A program made the translations under genes and the position numbers. From Escherichia phage RB16, in the sequence record NC_014467.1: a stretch of DNA of 64,000 nt. The stretch is one strand, 5' to 3'. The notes beneath the pieces are model-generated. The model made no database searches. It was not told where the DNA came from and saw only the letters and a list, made by a program, of their open reading frames with translations. Position 1 is the stretch's first letter, and each line of letters starts with the position of its first letter. Below are positions 4,221-47,532 of the stretch, piece by piece.

Positions 4221-4756
4221 GATTCTTTTTTCCGTGGAGTCGGCACGAGTACCTTTCCGTCTATCTCAATTTCCATATGTGCGAAGTTGAACATAGCCAT
4301 ACAGGAAACGGCTTCATCCGAGTCATTAGTGTACATAAGCTCAAGCTCTCCCAGGTTGGAGGGCCAAGCACCATAAAAGCGAAATGTCGCCACAGTTTTT
4401 GATTGCGAGTTATCCAGGATGTGTAAAGCCATTGCCTGTTGTGGTTCACTCCATCGAATTGAATCGAAGGTGTTAAAATCACAGGTTCCAAGCATCCACA
4501 GGTAAACACCCAGATACGAACGCAATTCTTCATCAACAGCAAAACGGATAGTCAACGGATCGAACTCCATTGCAGATCCAGGGATTTTCCCACGGATCAT
4601 AGGGTTCAATGGTACTTCCGTAATTGGAATGTTGACAGAAGGTAGTGTAACACCCTGAATTTGTAGTTTCAACCCTTTCATATAATCATTATCAGGAATA
4701 TCTAACATAAAGTTAGTTGGTGAAATCTGGTTCAGGATCATAGCAGTAGTGTTCAT
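4217..4756 (-). CDS. 3: gp3 tail completion and sheath stabiliser protein
   Basis: 179 aa, position after gene 1 as in T4 (T4 gp3 is about 176 aa). Confidence 0.65.
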   Translation of the reverse strand: MNTTAMILNQISPTNFMLDIPDNDYMKGLKLQIQGVTLPSVNIPITEVPLNPMIRGKIPGSAMEFDPLTIRFAVDEELRSYLGVYLWMLGTCDFNTFDSIRWSEPQQAMALHILDNSQSKTVATFRFYGAWPSNLGELELMYTNDSDEAVSCMAMFNFAHMEIEIDGKVLVPTPRKKES

Positions 4757-4789
4757 TAATGATCTCCATTTTGTAGATATTTATGTAGA

Positions 4790-4960
4790 CCGTGAGCGAA
4801 GCGAACACACGAACGAAGTGAGTGTTTTTTAACTCAACTACATAATTATATATTTATATTTTATATATAGAGAAAAATGTAGTTTTTGGTATAGTTTTTA
4901 ACCAACTGTAAACTATCCGTCTTCGCTTCGCTTGACGGAACTCGCTTCGCTCGTGATCTT
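4790..4960 (+). repeat. repeat cassette copy A: GC-rich inverted-repeat arms flanking an AT-rich core
   Basis: Arms GAGCGAAGCGA...ACGAACGAAGTGAGTG (4794-4824) and TTCGCTTCGCT...TCGCTTCGCTC (4921-4955); core about 90% identical to copy B at 41798-41966. Confidence 0.8.
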
Positions 4961-4970
4961 GAAAAACTAT

Positions 4971-4999
4971 TTGACCCTTTCAATAAATAGGTATATCAT
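4971..4999 (+). promoter_or_regulatory. sigma70-like early promoter (TTGACC-17-TATCAT) in front of the Ip-like gene; an AATAAATA late-promoter-like motif lies in the spacer
   Basis: Hexamer match and spacing; directly downstream of repeat copy A. Confidence 0.45.
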
Positions 5000-5027
5000 A
5001 CCTATACTTTCAAAAGAGATTGAAAAC

Positions 5028-5813
5028 ATGAAATCATTCAAAGAACTACTGTCTGAATCTGTTCAGACCAAAAAATTTGCTAAAACTGTTGATCTGGTTG
5101 ACCGTGGTAATGCTTCAAAAGGTCAGATCGGTTTCCTGCACTTTGCACACGGTGCTGATTACGATGTGTATGCGCCGGACTCTCACGATCTCGCCTACTT
5201 CGGTAAAGGTGTTGTTCGCCTGAAAGGTAAAACCACTGGTAAAACTCAGGCTGCATATGTTGACTGGGCGAAAGGTACGGTTTCTTTCTATAGCGGCGAT
5301 CCGGCAGATGACCTGAAATTCGACAAGCCAGCGAAATTCAAAGGCGCTTCCCTGTACAAAGAAGCCGAAGAAAATCTGGATCTGTATAATCAGTTAGCGG
5401 AAGACTTCGAAATTGATGTACCGATGGATGAAGCACTGGTGAAAGGTAAGGTGTACAAGCTCCCAAGCAACGATATGCGCTTGCTGTATACCGGACGTAC
5501 CAAAAACAAGCCTACAGGTGAATACGCTGTGTTTACGGTTGTAGATGCCTCCGGTAAGCCTCGTCTGGTATCGGGTAAACGATTTACCCAGGAATACAAA
5601 GGCGATATGCTGTCTAAACTGGTTCTCGCTGAATCGGAAGATCTGAACGAGGCCGCTAAAGGCATTCGCGAAAAAGTTATTGCGGTGTTGGTGAAGCGCG
5701 GGTTTAACGAAAAAGATGCAGAAAAGATGGTTGATAAAAACCTAAAAGATGCGATGAAAGTTCGCCCTGGTGCAACTCCAGGAAAACTAGCGGAAATCGT
5801 GAGCACCTTGTAA
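5028..5813 (+). CDS. internal-protein-like basic protein with capsid-targeting leader (Ip-like)
   Basis: N-terminus MKSFKELLSE matches the T4 internal-protein leader pattern MKTYQEFIAE cleaved by gp21 after L/I-x-E; Lys-rich 262-aa product; strong terminator downstream; ORF track gives a longer ORF from 4932. Confidence 0.6.
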   Translation: MKSFKELLSESVQTKKFAKTVDLVDRGNASKGQIGFLHFAHGADYDVYAPDSHDLAYFGKGVVRLKGKTTGKTQAAYVDWAKGTVSFYSGDPADDLKFDKPAKFKGASLYKEAEENLDLYNQLAEDFEIDVPMDEALVKGKVYKLPSNDMRLLYTGRTKNKPTGEYAVFTVVDASGKPRLVSGKRFTQEYKGDMLSKLVLAESEDLNEAAKGIREKVIAVLVKRGFNEKDAEKMVDKNLKDAMKVRPGATPGKLAEIVSTL

Positions 5814-5817
5814 AAAT

Positions 5818-5848
5818 AAAGCCCCTTCCTTTCGGTTGGGGCTTTTTT
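5818..5848. terminator. bidirectional rho-independent terminator (AAAGCCCC-loop-GGGGCTTT + T7), copy 1
   Basis: Hairpin between convergent Ip-like gene (+) and gp2 (-); near-identical hairpin at 42925-42958. Confidence 0.75.
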
Positions 5849-6702
5849 TAATATCGGTTCCAAACTTTTTTCGCGCTGTATGGTTTTCCTTTCGACTGGA
5901 AAGCCTGTGTAGGCAACCAAACTGCTTTCGCCCAGTCTTTTGGGGCTATCTCTGCAAGAGGTGATCGCAGGTGCGCAGGTAAGTATGCTTTGATCATTTG
6001 ATCTGCACCGCGCATCCCTTTCACGTTGTTCCAGTTGATTTTCAATCTGGTTTTGTTTGAAAGGCGATCTGTTGATCCGTATCCACGTTTCAAAAGTTCT
6101 TCTAAAAACTCTTGACGGGCTTTAGGTGGCGCATAGTGCAAGTTCAAACCGTACAGAACTAAATTACCCGCTTTAGAACGTCCTGAACCCAGGAAGATGA
6201 TTAGCGGGAACCGATCCCAGTATGGTAGGGTATCTTTGTATTTCGCGTCATACACGAACGTATACAATCGCCCTGTTGCTGGTTTCGCTACCCTGTGCGT
6301 TTTGATGCTGGTTTTGATGAAGTCACCAAACCAATCGGTTGAATCCTTTTGACGTTTCGCAGCAGAAACACCCACTGTAATTTTCCGTAAACTATTTCGG
6401 AAGTCGTTGATGATGTCAACTGTATGTTTTTTGCGATAGTCATTGCGTTTTCGTCGGGCTTCGGTTTCTGCTGTACGTCGCGAGATTTCATCATCAATCT
6501 GCTGTTTATAGCGGTGCATAGACTTTGTGAACGTTGCGTATGCAATCCCGTTTTCGTCCGCGAATTTTTTGGCTGTCATGCCTTTTAATTTTGCGCGTCT
6601 GAATTTAACACCCAGTTCAACCCATTCACCAAGTTTTCGCTTCGGTGGCGGTTTCGGCTTATCTTCTTCTGCGATGATCTCAAACTCAAATATAAAACTC
6701 AT
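5848..6702 (-). CDS. 2: gp2 DNA end protector protein
   Basis: 284 aa, position and size as T4 gp2; basic N-terminus. Confidence 0.7.
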   Translation of the reverse strand: MSFIFEFEIIAEEDKPKPPPKRKLGEWVELGVKFRRAKLKGMTAKKFADENGIAYATFTKSMHRYKQQIDDEISRRTAETEARRKRNDYRKKHTVDIINDFRNSLRKITVGVSAAKRQKDSTDWFGDFIKTSIKTHRVAKPATGRLYTFVYDAKYKDTLPYWDRFPLIIFLGSGRSKAGNLVLYGLNLHYAPPKARQEFLEELLKRGYGSTDRLSNKTRLKINWNNVKGMRGADQMIKAYLPAHLRSPLAEIAPKDWAKAVWLPTQAFQSKGKPYSAKKVWNRY

Positions 6703-12318: not shown

Positions 12319-12996
12319 ATGAATTACGATAGGATATATAAAGCTCTTATAGATAAGCGGAGGAAAACTCCGCTTAAAGACGGATATAAGGAACATCATC
12401 ACATCATTCCTAAATCTATGGGCGGTAGTGATGATTTTGATAATATGGTGTATTTGACAGCGAGAGAACATTTCGTTGCGCATCTTTTACTCGCTCGTAT
12501 ACATGGTGGTAAGATGTGGTTTGCTGTTGCTATGATGTGTGGGCGTGGATCAAGTAGCGCGAAAGGCGTTGTCCCTACTTCTCGAATATATGAGTTAGCC
12601 AAAAAACGGGTAGCCAATGAAAGAAGTATATTGTTTTCTGGGAAATTACATCCATTATACGGAAAGCCTTGTACAGAACAACGAAGAAAACGCATAGCTG
12701 AAGGACGTAAAGGGAAAACGCATACTCAGGAAACGAAACAGAAAATGTCTGAATCGAAGAAAGGATATAAACATACTCAGGAGACGAAACAGAAAATGTC
12801 TGAGTCACGGAAGAGACAAACACCTCCTACTCTGGGTAAAAAGTTACCTTCTCCATCAATCGAAAAAAGAAAGAAACTTAGTGAGGCTATTAAAAATCAG
12901 CCAATCATCAAATGTCCATATTGCGGGTTAGAAAGTAACAGCAAAGGAAATATGGTGAGGTTTCATTTCGACAACTGCAAATATAGGAAACCATGA
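12319..12996 (+). CDS. HNH homing endonuclease with tandem NUMOD3-like DNA-binding motifs
   Basis: HNH core EHHHIIPKSMGGSDDFDNMVYLTAREHFVAH; repeats GKTHTQETKQKMSESKKG / YKHTQETKQKMSESRKR; C-terminal CPYCG zinc finger. Confidence 0.85.
   Translation: MNYDRIYKALIDKRRKTPLKDGYKEHHHIIPKSMGGSDDFDNMVYLTAREHFVAHLLLARIHGGKMWFAVAMMCGRGSSSAKGVVPTSRIYELAKKRVANERSILFSGKLHPLYGKPCTEQRRKRIAEGRKGKTHTQETKQKMSESKKGYKHTQETKQKMSESRKRQTPPTLGKKLPSPSIEKRKKLSEAIKNQPIIKCPYCGLESNSKGNMVRFHFDNCKYRKP
12721..12815 (+). repeat. tandem direct repeat (about 51 bp x2) encoding the NUMOD3 motifs
   Basis: CATACTCAGGAAACGAAACAGAAAATGTCTGAATC... repeated with few substitutions. Confidence 0.7.
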
Positions 12997-29438: not shown

Positions 29439-31778
<2,340 letters not shown>

Positions 31779-31796
31779 ATTAGAGGAAATTCTATA

Positions 31797-33788
31797 ATGG
31801 CTTTACAATCTCCAGGTATTGAAACAAAAGAAACATCGGTACAATCTACCGTTGTTCGAAATTCAACTGGTCGCGCTGCCATTGTTGGTAAATTTTCATG
31901 GGGGCCAGCTTATCAGATCCGTCAGATTTCTAACGAAGTCGAACTGGTAAACTATTTTGGTTCCCCAGACAACCTAACCGCTGATTATTTCATGAGTGCT
32001 GTTAACTTCTTGCAGTACGGTAATGATCTCCGTGTGGTTCGTGTTGTCGATAAAGATGCCGCAAAAAACGCAAGCGCAATTTTTAACCAGATCAAAACAA
32101 CCATTGCTTCGCAGGGTTCCAACTACACCGTTGGCGACGTAATTAAGGTAAAATATAGCAACAACGTAGTTGAAGAAAATGGTAAAGTGTCCAAAGTTGA
32201 CAGTAACGGCAAAATCCTTGCGGTAGTCATCCCAAGCGAAAAAATCGTTGCTCGTGCAAAACAAATCGGGACTTATCCAGATATTTCTACTGGCTGGACT
32301 ACTGAAATCGTTTCTCAGTCTTCCGGTGTGTCTGCGTCAATCACGATCGATGGTATCGAAAGCGATTCTGGTATCACTCTGTTGAACCTGGATATTGCTA
32401 AAGAAACCATTCAAGGAACTGCGTTCCAGACACTGACCCAGAAATACCAGATCCCGTCTGTTGTGGCTCTGTATCCTGGCGAACTGGGTTCTACTGTACA
32501 GGTGGAGATTATCTCCAAAGCTGCTTACGATTCTGGCGCTATGATTTCCGGTTTCCCTTCTGGGATCTCCGTTAAAAACAGCGGTCGCTCTGTGATGACT
32601 TATGGTCCACAGACCGAAAACCAGTACGCTTTTGTTGTGCGTCGTGGTGGTATTGTACAAGAATCTTTCATCGTGTCAACAGAAAAAACCGACAAAGATA
32701 TCTACGGCGTAAACATCTATATGGATGACTTTTTCGCTAACGGTGGTTCACAGTACGTATTCGGTACTTCTATGAACTGGCCTAAAGGCTTCTCCGGTAT
32801 TCTAGAATTTGGTGGTGGTTTGTCCTCAAACGACACCGTAGGCGCTGATGAACTGATGACTGGTTGGGATATGTTCGCAGACCGCGAAGCCCTGCACGTT
32901 CCTCTGCTGATTGCTGGTGCTTGCGCTGGTGAAACTGTAGAAGTAATGTCAACCGTTCAGAAACACGTTATCTCGATCGGTGACGAACGTCAGGATTGTA
33001 CTGTGTTTGTATCGCCTCCGCGTTCTCTTCTGGTGAACATTCCTCTTGCTCAGGCAGTGGATAACATCATTGAATGGCGTATGGGATATACAATCAGTGG
33101 TAACACTCCGGTAGACAACAACCTGAACGTAAGTTCAAGCTATGGCTTCCTGGATGGTAACTATAAATATCAGTATGATAAATACAATGACGTGAACCGC
33201 TGGGTTCCGCTGGCAGGTGATATCGCTGGCCTGTGTGTTTACACTGATAGCGTTGCGCAACCGTGGATGTCTCCGGCTGGTTACAACCGTGGTCAGATCC
33301 GTAACTGCATTAAACTGGCTATTGAACCGCGTACTGCACACCGTGACGCGATGTATCAAGTTCAGATTAACCCGGTAACAGGTTTTGCAGGTGGCTCTGG
33401 TTTCGTTCTGTTCGGTGATAAAACACTGACTAATGTTCCGAGTCCGTTCGATCGTATCAACGTTCGTCGCTTGTTCAACATGATCAAGAAAGACATCGGG
33501 GATAACGCGAAATACAAACTGTTTGAAAACAACGACGATTTCACCCGTGCTTCGTTCCGTATGGATACTGGTCAGTACATGACGAATATTCGTGCGCTGG
33601 GTGGTTGCTATGATTACCGTGTAATCTGCGATATCACGAACAACACGCCAGATGTAATCGATCGTAACGAGTTTGTAGCGACTGTTTACGTGAAACCGCC
33701 ACGTTCTATCAACTACATCACTCTGAACTTCGTAGCAACGTCTACAGGCGCAGATTTCGATGAATTGGTAGGGCCACAAGCCGTATAA
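31797..33788 (+). CDS. 18: gp18 tail sheath protein
   Basis: 663 aa, order, size, N-terminus MALQSPGIETKETS typical of gp18. Confidence 0.95.
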   Translation: MALQSPGIETKETSVQSTVVRNSTGRAAIVGKFSWGPAYQIRQISNEVELVNYFGSPDNLTADYFMSAVNFLQYGNDLRVVRVVDKDAAKNASAIFNQIKTTIASQGSNYTVGDVIKVKYSNNVVEENGKVSKVDSNGKILAVVIPSEKIVARAKQIGTYPDISTGWTTEIVSQSSGVSASITIDGIESDSGITLLNLDIAKETIQGTAFQTLTQKYQIPSVVALYPGELGSTVQVEIISKAAYDSGAMISGFPSGISVKNSGRSVMTYGPQTENQYAFVVRRGGIVQESFIVSTEKTDKDIYGVNIYMDDFFANGGSQYVFGTSMNWPKGFSGILEFGGGLSSNDTVGADELMTGWDMFADREALHVPLLIAGACAGETVEVMSTVQKHVISIGDERQDCTVFVSPPRSLLVNIPLAQAVDNIIEWRMGYTISGNTPVDNNLNVSSSYGFLDGNYKYQYDKYNDVNRWVPLAGDIAGLCVYTDSVAQPWMSPAGYNRGQIRNCIKLAIEPRTAHRDAMYQVQINPVTGFAGGSGFVLFGDKTLTNVPSPFDRINVRRLFNMIKKDIGDNAKYKLFENNDDFTRASFRMDTGQYMTNIRALGGCYDYRVICDITNNTPDVIDRNEFVATVYVKPPRSINYITLNFVATSTGADFDELVGPQAV

Positions 33789-35947: not shown

Positions 35948-36192
35948 TGAAAGAATTTATCGAAGCAATCAAAAGCGGCGATCTGGTGGAGGCTAAGAAG
36001 CAATTCTACTCCATCATGGAAGACCGTACCGAAGCCCTTCGCCAAGAAATGCGCGTTGAAATTGCAGAAGCAGTCCGAATCGAAGGTGAAACCGACGAAG
36101 ACGACAGCGACGATGATAAAGACGACAAAGACGGCGAAAAAGGCGAAAAAGACAAAAAGCCGTCTGAAAAAGACGACAAAGCCGACGAATAA
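35944..36192 (+). CDS. 67: gp67 prohead core protein
   Basis: 82-aa highly acidic protein (DEDDSDDDKDDKDGEKGEKDKK) between portal and protease genes. Confidence 0.75.
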   Translation: MMKEFIEAIKSGDLVEAKKQFYSIMEDRTEALRQEMRVEIAEAVRIEGETDEDDSDDDKDDKDGEKGEKDKKPSEKDDKADE

Positions 36193-36204
36193 GAGGTGTA
36201 AATA

Positions 36205-36612
36205 ATGCAACTCGAACTCGAAGATATTAGTACCGAACTTATCGAACCCCATTTAACCGAAGCGAAAGCCCGTGTTGATATTCTGGGGATTGATGAAGGT
36301 ACAATTAAAATTATCGAAAATTTGGCGGTCGATGAACCTCATTTAGCCCTGGCGATGATGTCCATTGTTGAGGGTTTGAGTTTAGATGAAGTCATTGTTA
36401 AACACGTCGATTCTCGCGGTAATGTGGAACGTAAAAAGGACCGCAAAACCCGTGAACGTAACGCGTATCAAACAACTGGTCTTACTAAATCTCAACGTCG
36501 CCAGATCGCGCGTCGTGCGATGAAAACAAAACGTGCGAATCCTTCTATTACAACCCGCGCACAACGCAAGCGCAAAAAAGCGCTCCGTAAACGCGCCGCA
36601 TTAGGGCTATAA
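36205..36612 (+). CDS. 68: gp68 prohead core protein
   Basis: 135 aa, basic C-terminus, position. Confidence 0.75.
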   Translation: MQLELEDISTELIEPHLTEAKARVDILGIDEGTIKIIENLAVDEPHLALAMMSIVEGLSLDEVIVKHVDSRGNVERKKDRKTRERNAYQTTGLTKSQRRQIARRAMKTKRANPSITTRAQRKRKKALRKRAALGL

Positions 36613-41797: not shown

Positions 41798-41966
41798 GAG
41801 CGAAGCGAGTTTTCACGAACGAAGTGAGTGATGGGTACTACTAACTACATAATTATATTTTTATATTTTATATATAGAGAAAAATGTAGTTTTTGGTATG
41901 TTTTTTAACCAGATGTAAACTAACATTCATTCGCTTCGCTCATTCATGTACTCACTTCGTTCGTAG
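41798..41966 (+). repeat. repeat cassette copy B (same element as 4790-4960)
   Basis: Arms GAGCGAAGCGA...ACGAACGAAGTGAGTG and TCGCTTCGCTC...ACTCACTTCGTTCGT flank the shared AT-rich core. Confidence 0.8.
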
Positions 41967-41968
41967 AT

Positions 41969-41996
41969 TTGACTTCTTGATCATGATGGTTATAAT
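41969..41996 (+). promoter_or_regulatory. strong sigma70-like promoter TTGACT-16-TATAAT upstream of uvsY
   Basis: Consensus-like hexamers, 24 nt before uvsY ATG. Confidence 0.6.
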
Positions 41997-42019
41997 ACTA
42001 CTTTGTTTTGAGGTGATTC

Positions 42020-42442
42020 ATGGCTGAACTAAAACTTGAAGATTTACAGGCTGAACTCGAAAAGGATATGTTGATCGACCCTCTGAAACTACAGAGTGAA
42101 TCAGCAGACATTCCTAAGATTTGGTCTAAGTGGCTTCGATATCATTCGAATGCTAAGAAAAAACTGATCCAGCTACAGGCCAGGAAAGAAGCAGAAGTGA
42201 AAGAACGTCTTCTGTATTACACTGGACGGCATGAGACTGAAATGACTGATGTCATTTACACAGGTTCAGGTGAAATTAAGATTGCGATCAATGGCGATCC
42301 GAAAATTGTTGAGGTTAACAAACTGATTCAGTATTTCGAACTGATTGCAGAATTCACCAGTAAGGCGCTGGACATTGTTAAGAACAAAGGATATTCTATC
42401 AAAAATATGTTGGAAATCCGAAAACTTGAGAGTGGTGCATAA
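42020..42442 (+). CDS. uvsY: UvsY recombination mediator protein
   Basis: 140 aa; LEDLQAELEKDMLIDPLKLQSE...WSKWLRYHSNAKKKL...ERLLYYTGR pattern matches T4 UvsY as I recall it. Confidence 0.85.
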   Translation: MAELKLEDLQAELEKDMLIDPLKLQSESADIPKIWSKWLRYHSNAKKKLIQLQARKEAEVKERLLYYTGRHETEMTDVIYTGSGEIKIAINGDPKIVEVNKLIQYFELIAEFTSKALDIVKNKGYSIKNMLEIRKLESGA

Positions 42443-42443
42443 A

Positions 42444-42623
42444 ATGTCAGAACAAGAAGACTGCAAATGTGTGGTTTGTAAAAATCCGATTCCTACTGCA
42501 ACTGGGTTTGTAACTGAATCTGGTCGTGTGTGTGGTGTGATTTGTGCTCAGTATTTGATTGAGCGTAACAAAACCGGATTGAATGAAGCCGACGATCTGA
42601 ACGAAGTTCAAATGTTGTTGTAG
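42444..42623 (+). CDS. small Cys-rich protein (59 aa), uvsY.-2-like by position
   Basis: MSEQEDCKCVVCKNP...CGVICAQ; start abuts uvsY stop; track ORF 42345..42623 extends into uvsY. Confidence 0.5.
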   Translation: MSEQEDCKCVVCKNPIPTATGFVTESGRVCGVICAQYLIERNKTGLNEADDLNEVQMLL

Positions 42624-42639
42624 GTGGAATATGAGCAAA

Positions 42640-42920
42640 GTTGATTCGGGATGTTTCGAAGACGAACACCCAGATTTTTAGGGTAGGTAAAAAGTTGCCA
42701 TAGGCAAGACAAATCAAACTATAGGACAAACTTACGGATAGCCTAACGCCGAGGTGAGAACGTTAACTTTTGTCCGAGGCGGGTTTGAGTTCGAAACGCA
42801 AGGATCGGACGCTCTAAATACTGGTGTACCCCTTGTGGGGCTTGGCTGGCTGATTAATCAGCTTACGCAGTTTAGAATAGCGGTGTCGTCACCGCGTTAA
42901 AAATCAACTATGCTTCAAAA
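42640..42920 (+). ncRNA. candidate structured non-coding region (function unknown)
   Basis: About 280 bp without plausible ORF on the plus strand, several hairpins and a perfect 14-bp palindrome GCTGATTAATCAGC; ends at a strong terminator. Confidence 0.25.
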
Positions 42921-42924
42921 TTAA

Positions 42925-42958
42925 AGCCCCTTCCTTTCGGTTGGGGCTTCTTTTTTAG
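42925..42958. terminator. bidirectional rho-independent terminator, copy 2 of the hairpin at 5818-5848
   Basis: AAAGCCCCTTCCTTTCGGTTGGGGCTT followed by T-run; between convergent plus-strand region and uvsW.1. Confidence 0.75.
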
Positions 42959-43185
42959 AACTTCTCTTCTTCTCCGGTTTCAAGTTCGGCTTTGAGTTCT
43001 TCACGCCGTCCCTTGATCGCGTCACGCATTGAAATGTCATCGGATGCTGCAACTTCAACTTCCTTGACCCGCGTATTGTAATATTTTTCCAACTCTTTCA
43101 AACCGTCCAATGTACGGCACGAAGCAACTTTATTCATGAAATCATCAATTGCGGCTTCGTTAACGAATTCAGTAAAACTTTTCAT
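42955..43185 (-). CDS. uvsW.1: UvsW.1-like small protein
   Basis: 76 aa, directly downstream of uvsW on the same strand (T4 UvsW.1 is about this size). Confidence 0.6.
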   Translation of the reverse strand: MKSFTEFVNEAAIDDFMNKVASCRTLDGLKELEKYYNTRVKEVEVAASDDISMRDAIKGRREELKAELETGEEEKF

Positions 43186-43194
43186 CTTAACCTC

Positions 43195-44694
43195 TTAAAT
43201 TTCTACCTGTTTGATCACGTAGTCGAATCGTTCTTCATTGTAGATCCGCACACGTTCCATAGCATGTTTCATGCCGTAGTTAGTTGCACTATATTTATTT
43301 TTGGCTGTCTTCGACTTCGCCAGCGTTGCCAGGTTATCGACGATATCCCATACAGTTGCAAGCGCTTTCGAACCATGCTTACGCAACACGCGCCCGATCG
43401 ACTGCTTAACAACAACGGCAGATTTGCAAGGGTGTGCAAAAATGATGTGATGCAGGTTCTTGATTGAAATACCTGTACTCAGTACCCCGATCGAACCGAT
43501 TACAATCAAACCCTTTGTTGATTCCGCAATCTTTTTCATTTCGTTGCGGTCGTCAATGTCCGTATCGCCGTTGATCAATACAACGTTGTCATAAACCTTG
43601 CTTAACTTCTCGTACAGCCATTTTCCGTGTTCTTTATACCGGAACATCACGAATGTGTTTTCGTTCTTCTCACGGGCTAATTTAAGCGCTAATTTTAGAA
43701 TCCATGCGTTGCGCCGTGTATGGCTTGTAACGTATTTGATTTCAGTCTGGTAGTCTGCACCCTTCAATTTCTTGATCTCTTCTTCTTTGTACCGAAGGAA
43801 GATTGTGTTAATTTTCAGGTTGGTGACTTGTCCATCATCCATCAAACGACGCGTATCAACTGGTTTAAAGACTTTACCGAACGCACCGATGTATTGCATC
43901 ATGTTCGTTTTCCCTTCTTTCAGGGAACCGGATAAACCCAGTTTGAAAATGCACTGATCCATTGTGTCGATAATCTTTTTGATGCTCAACCCTGTTGATA
44001 GGTGGCATTCATCAACCATCAGGCACATGAACTGCTGGAACCACTCAGCAGGCATTTTAACCGCTGATTGCCAGGTTGAAACATAGATTAGCGCGTTGCT
44101 GTTCTTAGCAGTACCGGAACGAATACCCAACATTGCCGATTTCGGAAACAGTCGATAGTTTGCGATGTCCTCAATCATTTGGTCAACCAGCGCCGTAGTT
44201 GGAACGATAATCAGCACTTTTCCGCTGTAATGTTCCAGACACCAACGGGAGATAAGACCCTGAATTAGAGATTTACCCGCTGACGTTGGCAGGTTCAGAA
44301 CTCCTCGACGGTTTTTGATACCGTGGAATACGGATTCGCGCTGATACCAGTAAGGATCGATCTGTTTGTCACCGTCATAAACTGGATGCTCGTTAACCCA
44401 CTTGTCAAAATCTTCTTGCGTGATATCCTCTGTCTCGTGGATCTTCGGATCTACCCAGATTGAATAACCGCGTGATTCTGCGAATTTTGTTACCAGATAG
44501 GCTAACCCATACGGGAGTTTTCCGTTGTAGTCCATCAGGTAAATGTACCCGTTCCATCCACCATATTTGTATTTGGCTTGATACTGATAGCCTGGAGGCT
44601 GGAATGAAAAATAGTCACGAAGTTCATAGACAATGTTTGCTTCTGCCTGAATCTGTACGTGGCTTGTGTTTAAAAATTTGACTTCAATATCCAC
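43195..44694 (-). CDS. uvsW: UvsW RNA-DNA and DNA-DNA helicase
   Basis: 499 aa; Walker A LPTSAGKSL, DECH box MVDECH, SF2 helicase C-terminal motifs. Confidence 0.85.
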   Translation of the reverse strand: MDIEVKFLNTSHVQIQAEANIVYELRDYFSFQPPGYQYQAKYKYGGWNGYIYLMDYNGKLPYGLAYLVTKFAESRGYSIWVDPKIHETEDITQEDFDKWVNEHPVYDGDKQIDPYWYQRESVFHGIKNRRGVLNLPTSAGKSLIQGLISRWCLEHYSGKVLIIVPTTALVDQMIEDIANYRLFPKSAMLGIRSGTAKNSNALIYVSTWQSAVKMPAEWFQQFMCLMVDECHLSTGLSIKKIIDTMDQCIFKLGLSGSLKEGKTNMMQYIGAFGKVFKPVDTRRLMDDGQVTNLKINTIFLRYKEEEIKKLKGADYQTEIKYVTSHTRRNAWILKLALKLAREKNENTFVMFRYKEHGKWLYEKLSKVYDNVVLINGDTDIDDRNEMKKIAESTKGLIVIGSIGVLSTGISIKNLHHIIFAHPCKSAVVVKQSIGRVLRKHGSKALATVWDIVDNLATLAKSKTAKNKYSATNYGMKHAMERVRIYNEERFDYVIKQVEI

Positions 44695-47496: not shown

Positions 47497-47499
47497 ACA

Positions 47500-47532
47500 A
47501 AAAAGGGAACCGCAATGGTTCCCTTTCTTTTT
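47500..47532. terminator. bidirectional rho-independent terminator between convergent genes
   Basis: AAAGGGAACC-gcaa-TGGTTCCCTTTCTTTTT. Confidence 0.7.

What the first reader, a model, noticed from the sequence alone, without database searches (positions are those of the whole stretch)
5818..5848. The same bidirectional terminator closes both cassettes (also at 42925-42958)
The hairpin AAAGCCCCTTCCTTTCGGTTGGGGCTT with a T-run is present after the Ip-like gene and again after the uvsY/non-coding region, each time between convergent genes (Ip-like versus gp2; uvsY region versus uvsW.1). Together with the upstream repeat, each unit is repeat, promoter, gene(s), identical terminator. That is the signature expected of interchangeable expression modules or of recombination between shared ends.
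Basis: seen in the sequence. Interest (0 to 1): 0.5.

Follow-up and report, generated by a model that had tools for sequence, protein, structure and literature searches.

The report
Shared two-way terminator hairpin in phage
Two small gene units in this RB43-like T4-type phage end in the same transcription-stop hairpin, a conserved two-way terminator carried by many phages that also marks where related phages have swapped DNA; it is not the end of a movable gene cassette.

Summary
AAAGCCCCTTCCTTTCGGTTGGGGCTT occurs exactly twice in the window, at 5818-5844 and 42923-42949 (0 expected by chance). Each copy has an A-tract, a stable hairpin and a T-run, and sits between convergent genes.

It is best read as a two-way intrinsic terminator. 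The uvsY.-2/uvsW.1 copy is the orthologue of a terminator already described as conserved in T4-like phages. T4 has the same architecture with one compensatory pair flip.

The 22-nt hairpin core is identical in 18 copies from 9 genomes of 4 genera, including the podovirus phiEco32. It is essentially absent from bacterial genomes.

The cassette reading fails:
- The cargo is the same orthologous gene set in every relative.
- The hairpin occurs without the upstream repeat in Slopekvirus, Jiaodavirus and Kuravirus.
- In Lw1 the third repeat and third hairpin lie 32.7 kb apart.

The recombination half of the idea is supported:
- Relatedness between phages switches within about 30 nt of the hairpin in four comparisons. 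The window itself is Miller-like to its left and RB43-like to its right at locus 2.
- The stretch upstream of copy 2 is a patchwork of insertions and deletions.
- The core of the upstream repeat evolves in concert between loci.

Interest is moderate.

The parts
5812..5849 (.). Terminator copy 1 (T1): A-tract 5812-5820, hairpin 5821-5842 (GCCCC TT CC TTTC GG TT GGGGC), T-run 5843-5849. The last T's plus A5850 form the TAA stop of gp2 on the - strand.
   Evidence: the orthologous copy is annotated as a two-way terminator in Miller and KP15
42917..42956 (.). Terminator copy 2 (T2): A-tract AAAATTAAA 42917-42925, hairpin 42926-42947, T-run TTCTTTTTT 42948-42956, overlapping the stop of uvsW.1. It is also the crossover point between Miller-like (left) and RB43-like (right) sequence.
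   Evidence: positional orthologue of the conserved uvsW.1 terminator (PMC1524935) and of the T4 hairpin
5028..5813 (+).
   Evidence: phrog_7322, no Pfam; only in Pseudotevenvirus/Slopekvirus
5848..6702 (-). gp2 DNA end protector, convergent with the 261-aa gene.
4794..4952 (+). Upstream repeat R, locus 1. Two forward 12-mers (4794, 4811), an AT-rich core with inverted repeat AACTACAT...ATGTAGTT (4836-4915), and two reverse 12-mers (4921, 4941). Predicted nested palindrome.
4971..4999 (+). Sigma70-like promoter TTGACC-17-TATCAT downstream of R, upstream of the 261-aa gene. Consensus match only.
41798..41962 (+). Upstream repeat R, locus 2, between gene 24 and uvsY. 12-mers at 41798 and 41817 (forward) and 41930 and 41951 (reverse); core 41843-41922.
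41969..41996 (+). Sigma70-like promoter TTGACT-16-TATAAT upstream of uvsY. Consensus match only.
42020..42623 (+). uvsY (42020-42442) and uvsY.-2 (42444-42623, DUF2685).
42624..42916 (+). Non-coding mosaic between uvsY.-2 and T2. It holds a 16-aa remnant (42631-42681) of a 45-aa ORF that is intact in Lw1, Invicta and phi1_146002; a hairpin-rich 163-nt block (42682-42844); and a 72-nt block (42845-42916). Each block is patchily distributed among relatives.
42955..43185 (-). uvsW.1, convergent with the uvsY unit.

Best explanation
The hairpin is a multi-copy, two-way Rho-independent terminator. Each copy sits where a rightward unit meets leftward genes. There it should stop RNA polymerase from both directions, using the same GC stem with an A-tract on one side and a T-tract on the other. 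That keeps the embedded units (the 261-aa gene; uvsY/uvsY.-2) and their neighbours (gp2; uvsW.1) from reading into each other as antisense. The uvsY.-2/uvsW.1 copy is ancestral in T4-like phages. The copies after the 261-aa gene and after gene 25 are duplicates that arose in the Pseudotevenvirus/Slopekvirus lineage at new convergent junctions. The roughly 30-nt sequence is invariant while its surroundings diverge, and it lies exactly at gene-module boundaries. It therefore also serves as a patch of perfect homology at which crossovers between co-infecting relatives resolve, so mosaic junctions accumulate on it. The upstream repeat is a separate, genus-specific element, not the other end of a mobile cassette. 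Shown: sequence identity, fold, context, distribution, breakpoints. Inferred: actual termination, direction of duplication, and whether the hairpin promotes recombination or merely tolerates it.
For: Identity and non-chance. Stable hairpin on both strands with U-runs. Convergent context at every copy examined. Orthology with the terminator reported as conserved in T4 and five other genomes: PMC1524935. T4 itself has GGCCC-TT-CC-TTTTT-GG-TT-GGGCC, the same architecture with a G-C to C-G flip at pair 2. The 22-nt core is identical in 18 copies from 9 genomes and 4 genera, always in the same orientation relative to the rightward gene. It is not host-derived: 1 of 5426 E. coli genomes and 2 hits in 100,044 bacterial and archaeal species genomes, neither enterobacterial. 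It is independent of the repeat. Breakpoints on the hairpin (positions relative to hairpin base 0): window vs Miller is identical from -627 to -4 except one mismatch at -308, then mismatches from +24. Window vs RB43 is unalignable up to -10, then has 3 mismatches in the next ~650 nt. phi1_146002 vs Invicta at locus 1 has dense mismatches up to -10, then 4 in 900 nt. Miller vs phi1_146002 has only 3 mismatches from -103 to +56 and is dense after. Flank identities: left, window-Miller 96.6% vs window-RB43 87.8%; right, 93.6% vs 99.3%.
Against: There are no transcript 3'-end data, so termination is inferred from sequence. A generic terminator does not need an invariant loop and an invariant UU/UU internal loop, so conservation across unrelated phages suggests an extra constraint. 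RB43 has a shortened GCCCCTTTCGGGGC at the gene-25 junction, so the full form is dispensable at least there. KpV477 lacks the upstream A-tract, so the element is not two-way everywhere. Breakpoints may cluster at the hairpin simply because it is a gene boundary: one pair (window vs Lw1, locus 1) breaks at +255 inside gp2 instead, and only a handful of pairs were examined. Another convergent junction in the window uses a different terminator (47499-47529).
Confidence: 0.72

Rival explanations
1. Mobile or interchangeable expression cassette. Repeat + promoter + cargo + hairpin would be a unit whose ends allow different cargo genes to be swapped in, or the unit to move, by recombination between the shared ends.
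For: Both units have the layout repeat / sigma70-like promoter / gene(s) / identical hairpin. The 261-aa gene unit looks like an insertion on the opposite strand between genes 3 and 2, which are annotated consecutively on one strand in these relatives. The segment between uvsY.-2 and T2 differs in content between relatives. The repeat cores exchange sequence between loci.
Against: The cargo is orthologous and syntenic in all relatives. KP15 has the same genes and hairpins without the repeat. The hairpin occurs alone in Jiaodavirus, Kuravirus and other viral contigs. In Lw1 the third repeat and third hairpin are 32.7 kb apart. No genome examined carries a different gene between the same two ends.
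Confidence: 0.07
2. Specific recognition element. The hairpin would primarily be a sequence-specific site in RNA or DNA: for example a processing or stability determinant, a site for a phage or host protein, or a recombination or nuclease target. Its terminator-like appearance would be secondary. This would explain why loop and internal loop are invariant across phage families.
For: The 22-nt core, including the unpaired bases, is identical in 4 genera whose flanking genes are only 70-77% identical. There is 33 nt of identity with phiEco32. The TTCC...GGTT interior is retained even in T4. The minus-strand version has a GAAA tetraloop. Breakpoints concentrate on it.
Against: No known RNA family matches. 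Every copy has the A-tract/T-tract context expected of a terminator and lies at the 3' ends of genes. RB43 tolerates loss of the interior 8 nt at one site. No candidate binding protein was identified.
Confidence: 0.15
3. Chance or convergent similarity of two ordinary GC-rich terminators.
For: Other terminators in the window share the generic AAAGCCCC...GGGGCTTTT frame (family D1: 14907, 55992, 60608; 2513-2542).
Against: Those other terminators are only 63-68% identical and differ in the interior, whereas the two copies are 27/27. There were zero matches in shuffles, and the exact sequence recurs at orthologous sites in every relative.
Confidence: 0.01

Closest known systems
Conserved bidirectional terminator downstream of uvsW.1 in T4-like phages (Nolan et al. 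2006, Virol J 3:30, PMC1524935)
   Same: Copy 2 occupies exactly this position, between uvsW.1 and the oppositely transcribed uvsY.-2. It is a predicted two-way Rho-independent terminator. RB43 was one of the genomes analysed in that paper. T4's hairpin has the same stem / internal-loop / stem design.
   Different: In the passages read, that paper reports conserved position only. It does not mention that the same sequence recurs at one or two other junctions of the same genome, that it is shared with unrelated phages, or that it coincides with recombination breakpoints.
PeSL (promoter-early stem-loop) cassettes of RB49/phi1 and other T4-like phages (Arbiol et al. 2010, PMC2839356; Comeau et al. 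2014, PMC4122927)
   Same: A repeated short regulatory motif containing a GC-rich stem-loop that acts as a terminator, provides homology for recombination, and marks the borders of shuffled segments. The patchwork upstream of copy 2 and the crossovers on the hairpin behave in this way.
   Different: PeSLs are composite promoter + stem-loop units between co-directional ORFs. They are present in many copies, concentrated in hyperplastic regions, and flank ORFans. This hairpin has no promoter, lies between convergent conserved genes, has 2-3 copies, and the exchanges seen are between orthologous copies in different phages, not between neighbouring copies.
Generic bidirectional intrinsic terminators at convergent gene pairs
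   Same: GC-rich hairpin flanked by an A-tract and a T-tract, so that both transcripts end in hairpin + U-run. Sited between converging stop codons.
   Different: The unusual points are exact sequence reuse within a genome and across phage families, and a conserved 2x2 internal loop.

Membership tests
Bidirectional Rho-independent terminator | Stable GC-rich hairpin in the RNA of both strands | tested here: met
   -16.2 to -17.7 kcal/mol, z -3.4 to -4.25, for all four strand/copy combinations
Bidirectional Rho-independent terminator | U-run immediately 3' of the hairpin on both strands | tested here: met
   + strand TTTTTTT / TTCTTTTTT; - strand TTTATTTTT / TTTAATTTT
Bidirectional Rho-independent terminator | Located between convergent transcription units | tested here: met
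   261-aa gene(+)/gp2(-) and uvsY.-2(+)/uvsW.1(-). The same holds at every copy examined in Lw1, KP15, KpV477 and phiEco32
Bidirectional Rho-independent terminator | Transcripts actually end there in vivo or in vitro | not testable with these tools
   No transcript data were available. GenBank annotations in Miller and KP15 are themselves predictions
Conserved uvsW.1 terminator of T4-like phages | Position between uvsW.1 and the oppositely oriented downstream gene | tested here: met
   Copy 2; literature
Conserved uvsW.1 terminator of T4-like phages | Sequence/structure homology with the T4 element | tested here: met
   T4 GGCCCTTCCTTTTTGGTTGGGCC vs GCCCCTTCCTTTCGGTTGGGGC: same design, one compensatory pair flip, loop 5 vs 4 nt
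PeSL regulatory cassette | Sigma70-like early promoter within the same short motif as the stem-loop | tested here: not met
   The hairpin abuts the stop codons of convergent genes on both sides. The nearest promoter-like sites for the two units are about 800-950 nt upstream; definition
PeSL regulatory cassette | Many copies, concentrated in hyperplastic regions, flanking ORFans between co-directional ORFs | tested here: not met
   2 exact copies in this phage and 3 in Lw1, CfP1 and KP15. They flank conserved genes (gp2, uvsW.1, gene 25)
PeSL regulatory cassette | Sites of recombination that delimit shuffled segments | tested here: met
   Breakpoints within about 30 nt of the hairpin in 4 pairwise comparisons; indel patchwork directly upstream of copy 2
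PeSL regulatory cassette | Formation of mini-circles by recombination between copies | not testable with these tools
   Needs inverse PCR or long-read data
Mobile cassette with shared ends (repeat ... hairpin) | Different cargo between the same ends, or the same unit at different genomic sites | tested here: not met
   Orthologous cargo at fixed sites in the relatives examined. Third repeat and third hairpin are 32.7 kb apart
Mobile cassette with shared ends (repeat ... hairpin) | The two ends co-occur across genomes | tested here: not met
   A search with the 41-nt terminator region matched 563 phage records at least in part; the repeat is in 61. KP15 has three hairpins and no repeat
T4-type replication origin (considered only for the upstream repeat) | Position at the uvsY promoter region, as for T4 oriF | tested here: met
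   T4 oriF is annotated at the 5' end of uvsY. The repeat lies 58 nt upstream of uvsY here
T4-type replication origin (considered only for the upstream repeat) | MotA-dependent middle promoter plus unwinding element; origin activity | tested here: inconclusive
   RB43 has no MotA or middle-promoter consensus. An AT-rich core flanked by GC-rich 12-mers is compatible with an unwinding element but proves nothing. The supposed parallel with oriG is weak, because oriG lies 2.1 kb inside gene 34

The most novel reading that the evidence does not exclude
The hairpin could be more than a terminator. It could be a sequence-invariant, horizontally spreading 'linker' that unrelated enterobacterial phages (T4-like myoviruses of three genera, phiEco32-like podoviruses and uncultured viral contigs) share, and that actively channels homologous exchange to gene-module borders. 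That would make it a promoter-less counterpart of PeSLs working between phage genomes. In Pseudotevenvirus it could pair functionally with the upstream nested-palindrome repeat, whose core evolves in concert at three loci and lies where T4 has oriF. That repeat could be an origin or a factor-binding regulatory site, and the two together would create insulated units.
Probability: 0.2. Interest if true: 0.6.

Novelty: new member of a known kind. Interest (0 to 1): 0.38.

Why it matters
On its own this is an ordinary and partly already annotated two-way terminator, so the cassette idea should not be carried forward. Three results are worth keeping.

1. One exact terminator sequence is reused within a genome and across phage families, yet is absent from hosts. 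That is a clean marker of horizontal exchange of regulatory DNA between phages.

2. Mosaic junctions between closely related phages map onto it at near base-pair resolution. This gives a concrete, testable example of how an invariant regulatory motif can set the borders of exchangeable modules in T4-like genomes outside the hyperplastic regions where PeSLs were described.

3. As a compact element predicted to work in both directions, it is a candidate part for phage engineering.

Tried and rejected
- Rfam: a gathering-threshold scan of the whole window and an E-value scan of 42400-43100 found no family, only weak sub-threshold hits over the terminator. No tRNA or tmRNA was found.
- Host origin of the hairpin: rejected.
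- A Slopekvirus counterpart of the upstream repeat: KP15's two upstream regions are both AT-rich and GATC-rich with good sigma70-like promoters, but they share no real repeat. I dropped the idea of a conserved analogue.
- Positional parallel between the third repeat (next to rnh) and T4 oriG: weakened, because oriG lies 2.1 kb inside gene 34.
- ncRNA reading of 42682-42844: the fold z-score is only -2.7 on either strand, and the copies in other phages are 98-100% identical, so covariation cannot be assessed. Left open.
- A 17-mer scan of IMG/VR for the repeat arm gave mostly chance hits; only 13 of 58 loci were real.
- Concerted evolution of the hairpin itself could not be tested, because the full copies show no variation.
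- The 'Ip-like' label: the N-terminus MKSFKELLSE resembles, from my memory, the T4 internal-protein capsid-targeting sequence. I did not verify this against T4 sequences; the review I read gives no sequence.

Full report
**What the window is.** The window is a T4-like phage of the genus Pseudotevenvirus (RB43 group). Locus 1 (4500-6500) is 99.2-99.5% identical to Escherichia phage Lw1 and Citrobacter phage KKP_3664. Locus 2 (41800-43400) is 95.6% identical to Citrobacter phage Miller. Segments checked at both loci match the IMG/VR contig IMGVR_UViG_648936715_000001 (176,788 nt) exactly. The window aligns to Lw1 positions 95.9-159 kb with identity varying from 79 to 97% by segment, so the genome is a mosaic of related phages.

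**Checking the observation.** The 27-mer AAAGCCCCTTCCTTTCGGTTGGGGCTT occurs exactly at 5818-5844 and 42923-42949 on the + strand. No further match appears even with three mismatches, and none in 100 shuffles.
- Similarity extends to 38 nt (5812-5849 vs 42917-42954, 95%) and then stops. The shared part is therefore just A-tract + hairpin + T-tract.
- Both strands fold into GCCCC / 2x2 internal loop / CC-tetraloop-GG at -16.2 to -17.7 kcal/mol, z -3.4 to -4.25. U-runs follow on both strands.
- Copy 1 lies between a 261-aa gene (5028-5813, +; phrog_7322, no Pfam match) and gp2 (5848-6702, -).
- Copy 2 lies between uvsY (42020-42442), uvsY.-2 (42444-42623) plus about 290 nt of non-coding DNA on the + strand, and uvsW.1 (42955-43185) on the - strand.
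- At both copies the - strand gene's TAA stop is formed by the end of the T-run.
An 80-nt core is 94% identical between 4836-4915 and 41843-41922. It is flanked by two forward and two reverse copies of the 12-mer GARCGAAGYGAG: 7 hits with at most one mismatch against 0.73 expected, all at these two loci.

**What the hairpin is.** Copy 2 sits at a junction already described in the literature. Nolan et al. [quoted passage not shown]
- I read the T4 junction directly. It is GGCCC-TT-CC-TTTTT-GG-TT-GGGCC followed by T6, the same stem / UU-UU internal loop / CC-GG design with a compensatory G-C to C-G flip at the second pair.
- The orthologous copies are annotated as terminators on both strands in KP15, and at the 261-aa gene/gp2 site in Miller; Miller's uvsW.1 copy is annotated on one strand only.
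- Together with the fold and the convergent context, this makes a two-way intrinsic terminator the best-supported function. No transcript data were available, so termination itself remains inferred.

**How many copies, and where.** I rebuilt the complete Lw1 genome from four fetched pieces and searched it.
- The hairpin occurs three times: after gene 25 (64.4 kb), after the 261-aa gene (101.7 kb) and after the uvsY unit (137.0 kb). Each time it lies between convergent genes.
- KP15 (genus Slopekvirus) has the same three copies at the same three junctions. CfP1 also has three exact matches, one of them after gene 25.
- The window's own phage and RB43 have only the two exact copies seen in the window. 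At the gene-25 junction RB43 has a shortened GCCCCTTTCGGGGC.
- A further convergent junction in the window (47499-47529) uses an unrelated two-way terminator.
- In T4, gene 25 directly precedes uvsY. In this lineage the two are separated and each block is followed by a copy of the hairpin. This fits duplication of the ancestral terminator during rearrangement, but that is an inference.

**Distribution beyond this genus.** A search with the 41-nt terminator region matched 563 phage records at least in part.
- The 22-nt core is identical in all 18 copies I extracted from 9 genomes of 4 genera. These include Jiaodavirus KpV477 (at the uvsY.-2/uvsW.1 junction) and the podovirus phiEco32, where it again lies between convergent genes and shares 33 identical nt with copy 1.
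- It also occurs in other, unidentified IMG/VR contigs with different flanking sequence.
- It is not a host terminator. It is found in 1 of 5426 complete E. coli genomes, and in 2 places among 100,044 bacterial and archaeal species genomes, neither enterobacterial.
- The flanking genes are only about 70-77% identical between KP15 and the window. The invariance of the unpaired loop and internal-loop bases is therefore stronger than generic terminator function requires. I could not decide among purifying selection for an optimised element, horizontal transfer, and an additional sequence-specific role.

**Testing the cassette idea.**
- The cargo does not vary. The 261-aa gene aligns in all seven genomes compared, at the same gp3/gp2 site, including KP15; RB43 merely has a C-terminal truncation. 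A protein search found it in 177 records, essentially confined to Pseudotevenvirus and Slopekvirus. uvsY and uvsY.-2 are present in every relative fetched.
- The two 'ends' are not linked. The repeat is confined to 61 Pseudotevenvirus records. KP15 has all three hairpins but no such repeat: its upstream regions are AT-rich and GATC-rich with good promoters but do not align with each other.
- In Lw1 the third repeat lies between rnh and gene 55 (31.7 kb), 32.7 kb from the third hairpin, with a whole block of about 50 genes in between.
- The hairpin also fails the definition of a PeSL, the known recombinogenic promoter + stem-loop cassette of T4-like phages. It has no promoter in the motif, lies between convergent conserved genes, and has only 2-3 copies.
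- 'Interchangeable expression modules' is therefore not supported.

**Recombination at the shared sequences is supported.** I compared mismatch positions around the hairpins between pairs of phages, numbering positions from the first hairpin base.
- Locus 2, window vs Miller: one mismatch from -627 to -4, then mismatches from +24 onward.
- Locus 2, window vs RB43: unalignable up to -10, then only 3 mismatches in the next ~650 nt.
- The window is thus Miller-like on the left and RB43-like on the right, and the crossover falls inside the A-tract at the hairpin edge. The flank identities agree: left 96.6% vs 87.8%, right 93.6% vs 99.3%.
- Locus 1, phi1_146002 vs Invicta: about 80 mismatches in the 1000 nt before -10, and 4 in the 900 nt after.
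- Locus 2, Miller vs phi1_146002: only 3 mismatches from -103 to +56, then a steady run of mismatches beyond.
- One pair (window vs Lw1, locus 1) breaks at +255 instead.
- The stretch between uvsY.-2 and copy 2 is a patchwork. A 45-aa ORF is intact in some phages and reduced to a 16-aa remnant here. The 163-nt block at 42682-42844 is 98-100% identical in Miller, Lw1, CfP1, Xman and Invicta, but absent from RB43 and replaced in phi1_146002. A 72-nt block has yet another distribution.
- These data show that exchange junctions accumulate on the hairpin. They do not show whether it promotes crossovers or is merely the only invariant patch at a boundary where recombinants remain viable.

**The upstream repeat (outside the finding, but relevant to it).**
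- It is a nested palindrome of about 165 nt. The outer and inner 12-mer arms and a central inverted repeat (AACTACAT...ATGTAGTT) enclose an AT-rich core. Fold z-scores are -5.6 to -8.4.
- Each copy is followed by a sigma70-like promoter and a gene start: the 261-aa gene, uvsY, and in Lw1 gene 55.
- Its arms are locus-specific and behave as orthologues. Distance between loci within a genome is 0.30, against 0.06 for the same locus between genomes.
- The core does not behave that way (0.17 vs 0.18). phi1_146002, the Invicta type and RB43 each carry private core variants shared by both loci. In the Invicta type the inverted repeat is changed on both sides (ATGTACTGT...ACAGTACAT), which preserves complementarity.
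- In Lw1 the 3' part of the locus-2 core carries the locus-1 sequence, an ectopic conversion footprint.
- The copies therefore evolve in concert, through gene conversion or co-evolution with a factor.
- The function is unknown. The repeat's position just upstream of uvsY matches T4 oriF. RB43-type phages lack MotA and middle promoters, and the parallel with oriG is weak. An origin or factor-binding regulatory role is a hypothesis only.

**Verdict.** The sequence observation is confirmed. The feature is a conserved, multi-copy two-way terminator whose uvsW.1 copy is already known by position. The 'shared ends' do recombine, but as homologous exchange between phages at orthologous copies and as gene conversion between repeat cores, not as swapping of cargo. 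I rate the novelty as a new member of a known kind and the interest as moderate. The modest surprises are the exact reuse of one terminator across phage families and the base-level coincidence with mosaic junctions.

Noticed in passing
window 4794-4952 and 41798-41962; Lw1 31672-31815 (L012): The upstream repeat is a nested palindrome of about 165 nt: four 12-mers GARCGAAGYGAG around an AT-rich core with its own inverted repeat. RNA fold z is -5.6 to -8.4. There are three copies per genome in Lw1 and in the window's phage, each followed by a sigma70-like promoter. The arms are locus-specific, but the core carries genome-specific variants shared between loci, including compensatory changes in the inverted repeat (Invicta type). 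This is concerted evolution.
   Followed up: partly
Lw1 locus 2 repeat (L004 ~36280-36320) vs locus 1 (L004 ~1290-1330): The 3' part of the Lw1 locus-2 core (GGTATGGTTTTTAACCAACTGTAAACTATCCGTC) is the locus-1 sequence, whereas the window keeps the locus-2 type there. This is an ectopic gene-conversion tract between copies 35 kb apart.
   Followed up: partly
window 42682-42844: A 163-nt hairpin-rich non-coding block is 98-100% identical in Miller, Lw1, CfP1, Xman and Invicta, absent in RB43 and replaced in phi1_146002. It has no Rfam match, and the fold z-score for the surrounding 289-nt stretch (42668-42956) is only about -2.7 on both strands. It could be a small RNA, a remnant, or a mobile patch.
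   Followed up: partly
window 42631-42681: A 16-codon ORF (MSKVDSGCFEDEHPDF) is the deletion remnant of a 45-aa ORF that is intact in Lw1, phi1_146002 and Invicta.
   Followed up: yes
window 41795-41767 (- strand): A strong sigma70-like promoter match (TTGACC-17-TATAAT, 11/12) at the left edge of the locus-2 repeat points leftward, antisense into the 3' end of gene 24.
   Followed up: no
window 5028-5060: The 261-aa protein starts MKSFKELLSES. From memory this resembles the capsid-targeting sequence of T4 internal proteins (MKTYQEFIAE, cut after E by the prohead protease). The gene is confined to Pseudotevenvirus and Slopekvirus.
   Followed up: partly
RB43 gene 25 / ORF110c junction (L105 4310-4335): Where Lw1, CfP1 and KP15 have the full hairpin, RB43 has GCCCCTTTCGGGGC. 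This is the same element minus the interior TTCC/GGTT, so the extension is dispensable at that site.
   Followed up: yes
phiEco32 30486-30521 (L014 1201-1236); IMG/VR loci L081-L085, L097, L101-L104: The identical hairpin occurs in a podovirus (Kuravirus), between convergent genes, and in other uncultured viral contigs whose flanks differ from the T4-like ones. This points to horizontal spread of a terminator between phages.
   Followed up: partly
window 47499-47529: Another convergent junction carries a different, perfectly palindromic two-way terminator (AAAGGGAACCGCAATGGTTCCCTTT).
   Followed up: no
window 12709-12810 and 36093-36193: There is a tandem 51-nt repeat (80% identical copies) at 12709-12810. 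There are also short overlapping GA-rich repeats (GACGACAAAGACG...) at 36093-36193, probably coding low-complexity acidic/lysine stretches.
   Followed up: no
KP15 102169-upstream and 136300-136600 (L016 380-715; L076 1000-1310): In Slopekvirus the regions upstream of the 261-aa gene and of uvsY are extremely AT-rich, packed with GATC sites, and contain near-consensus sigma70 promoters. They are not sequence repeats of each other.
   Followed up: partly
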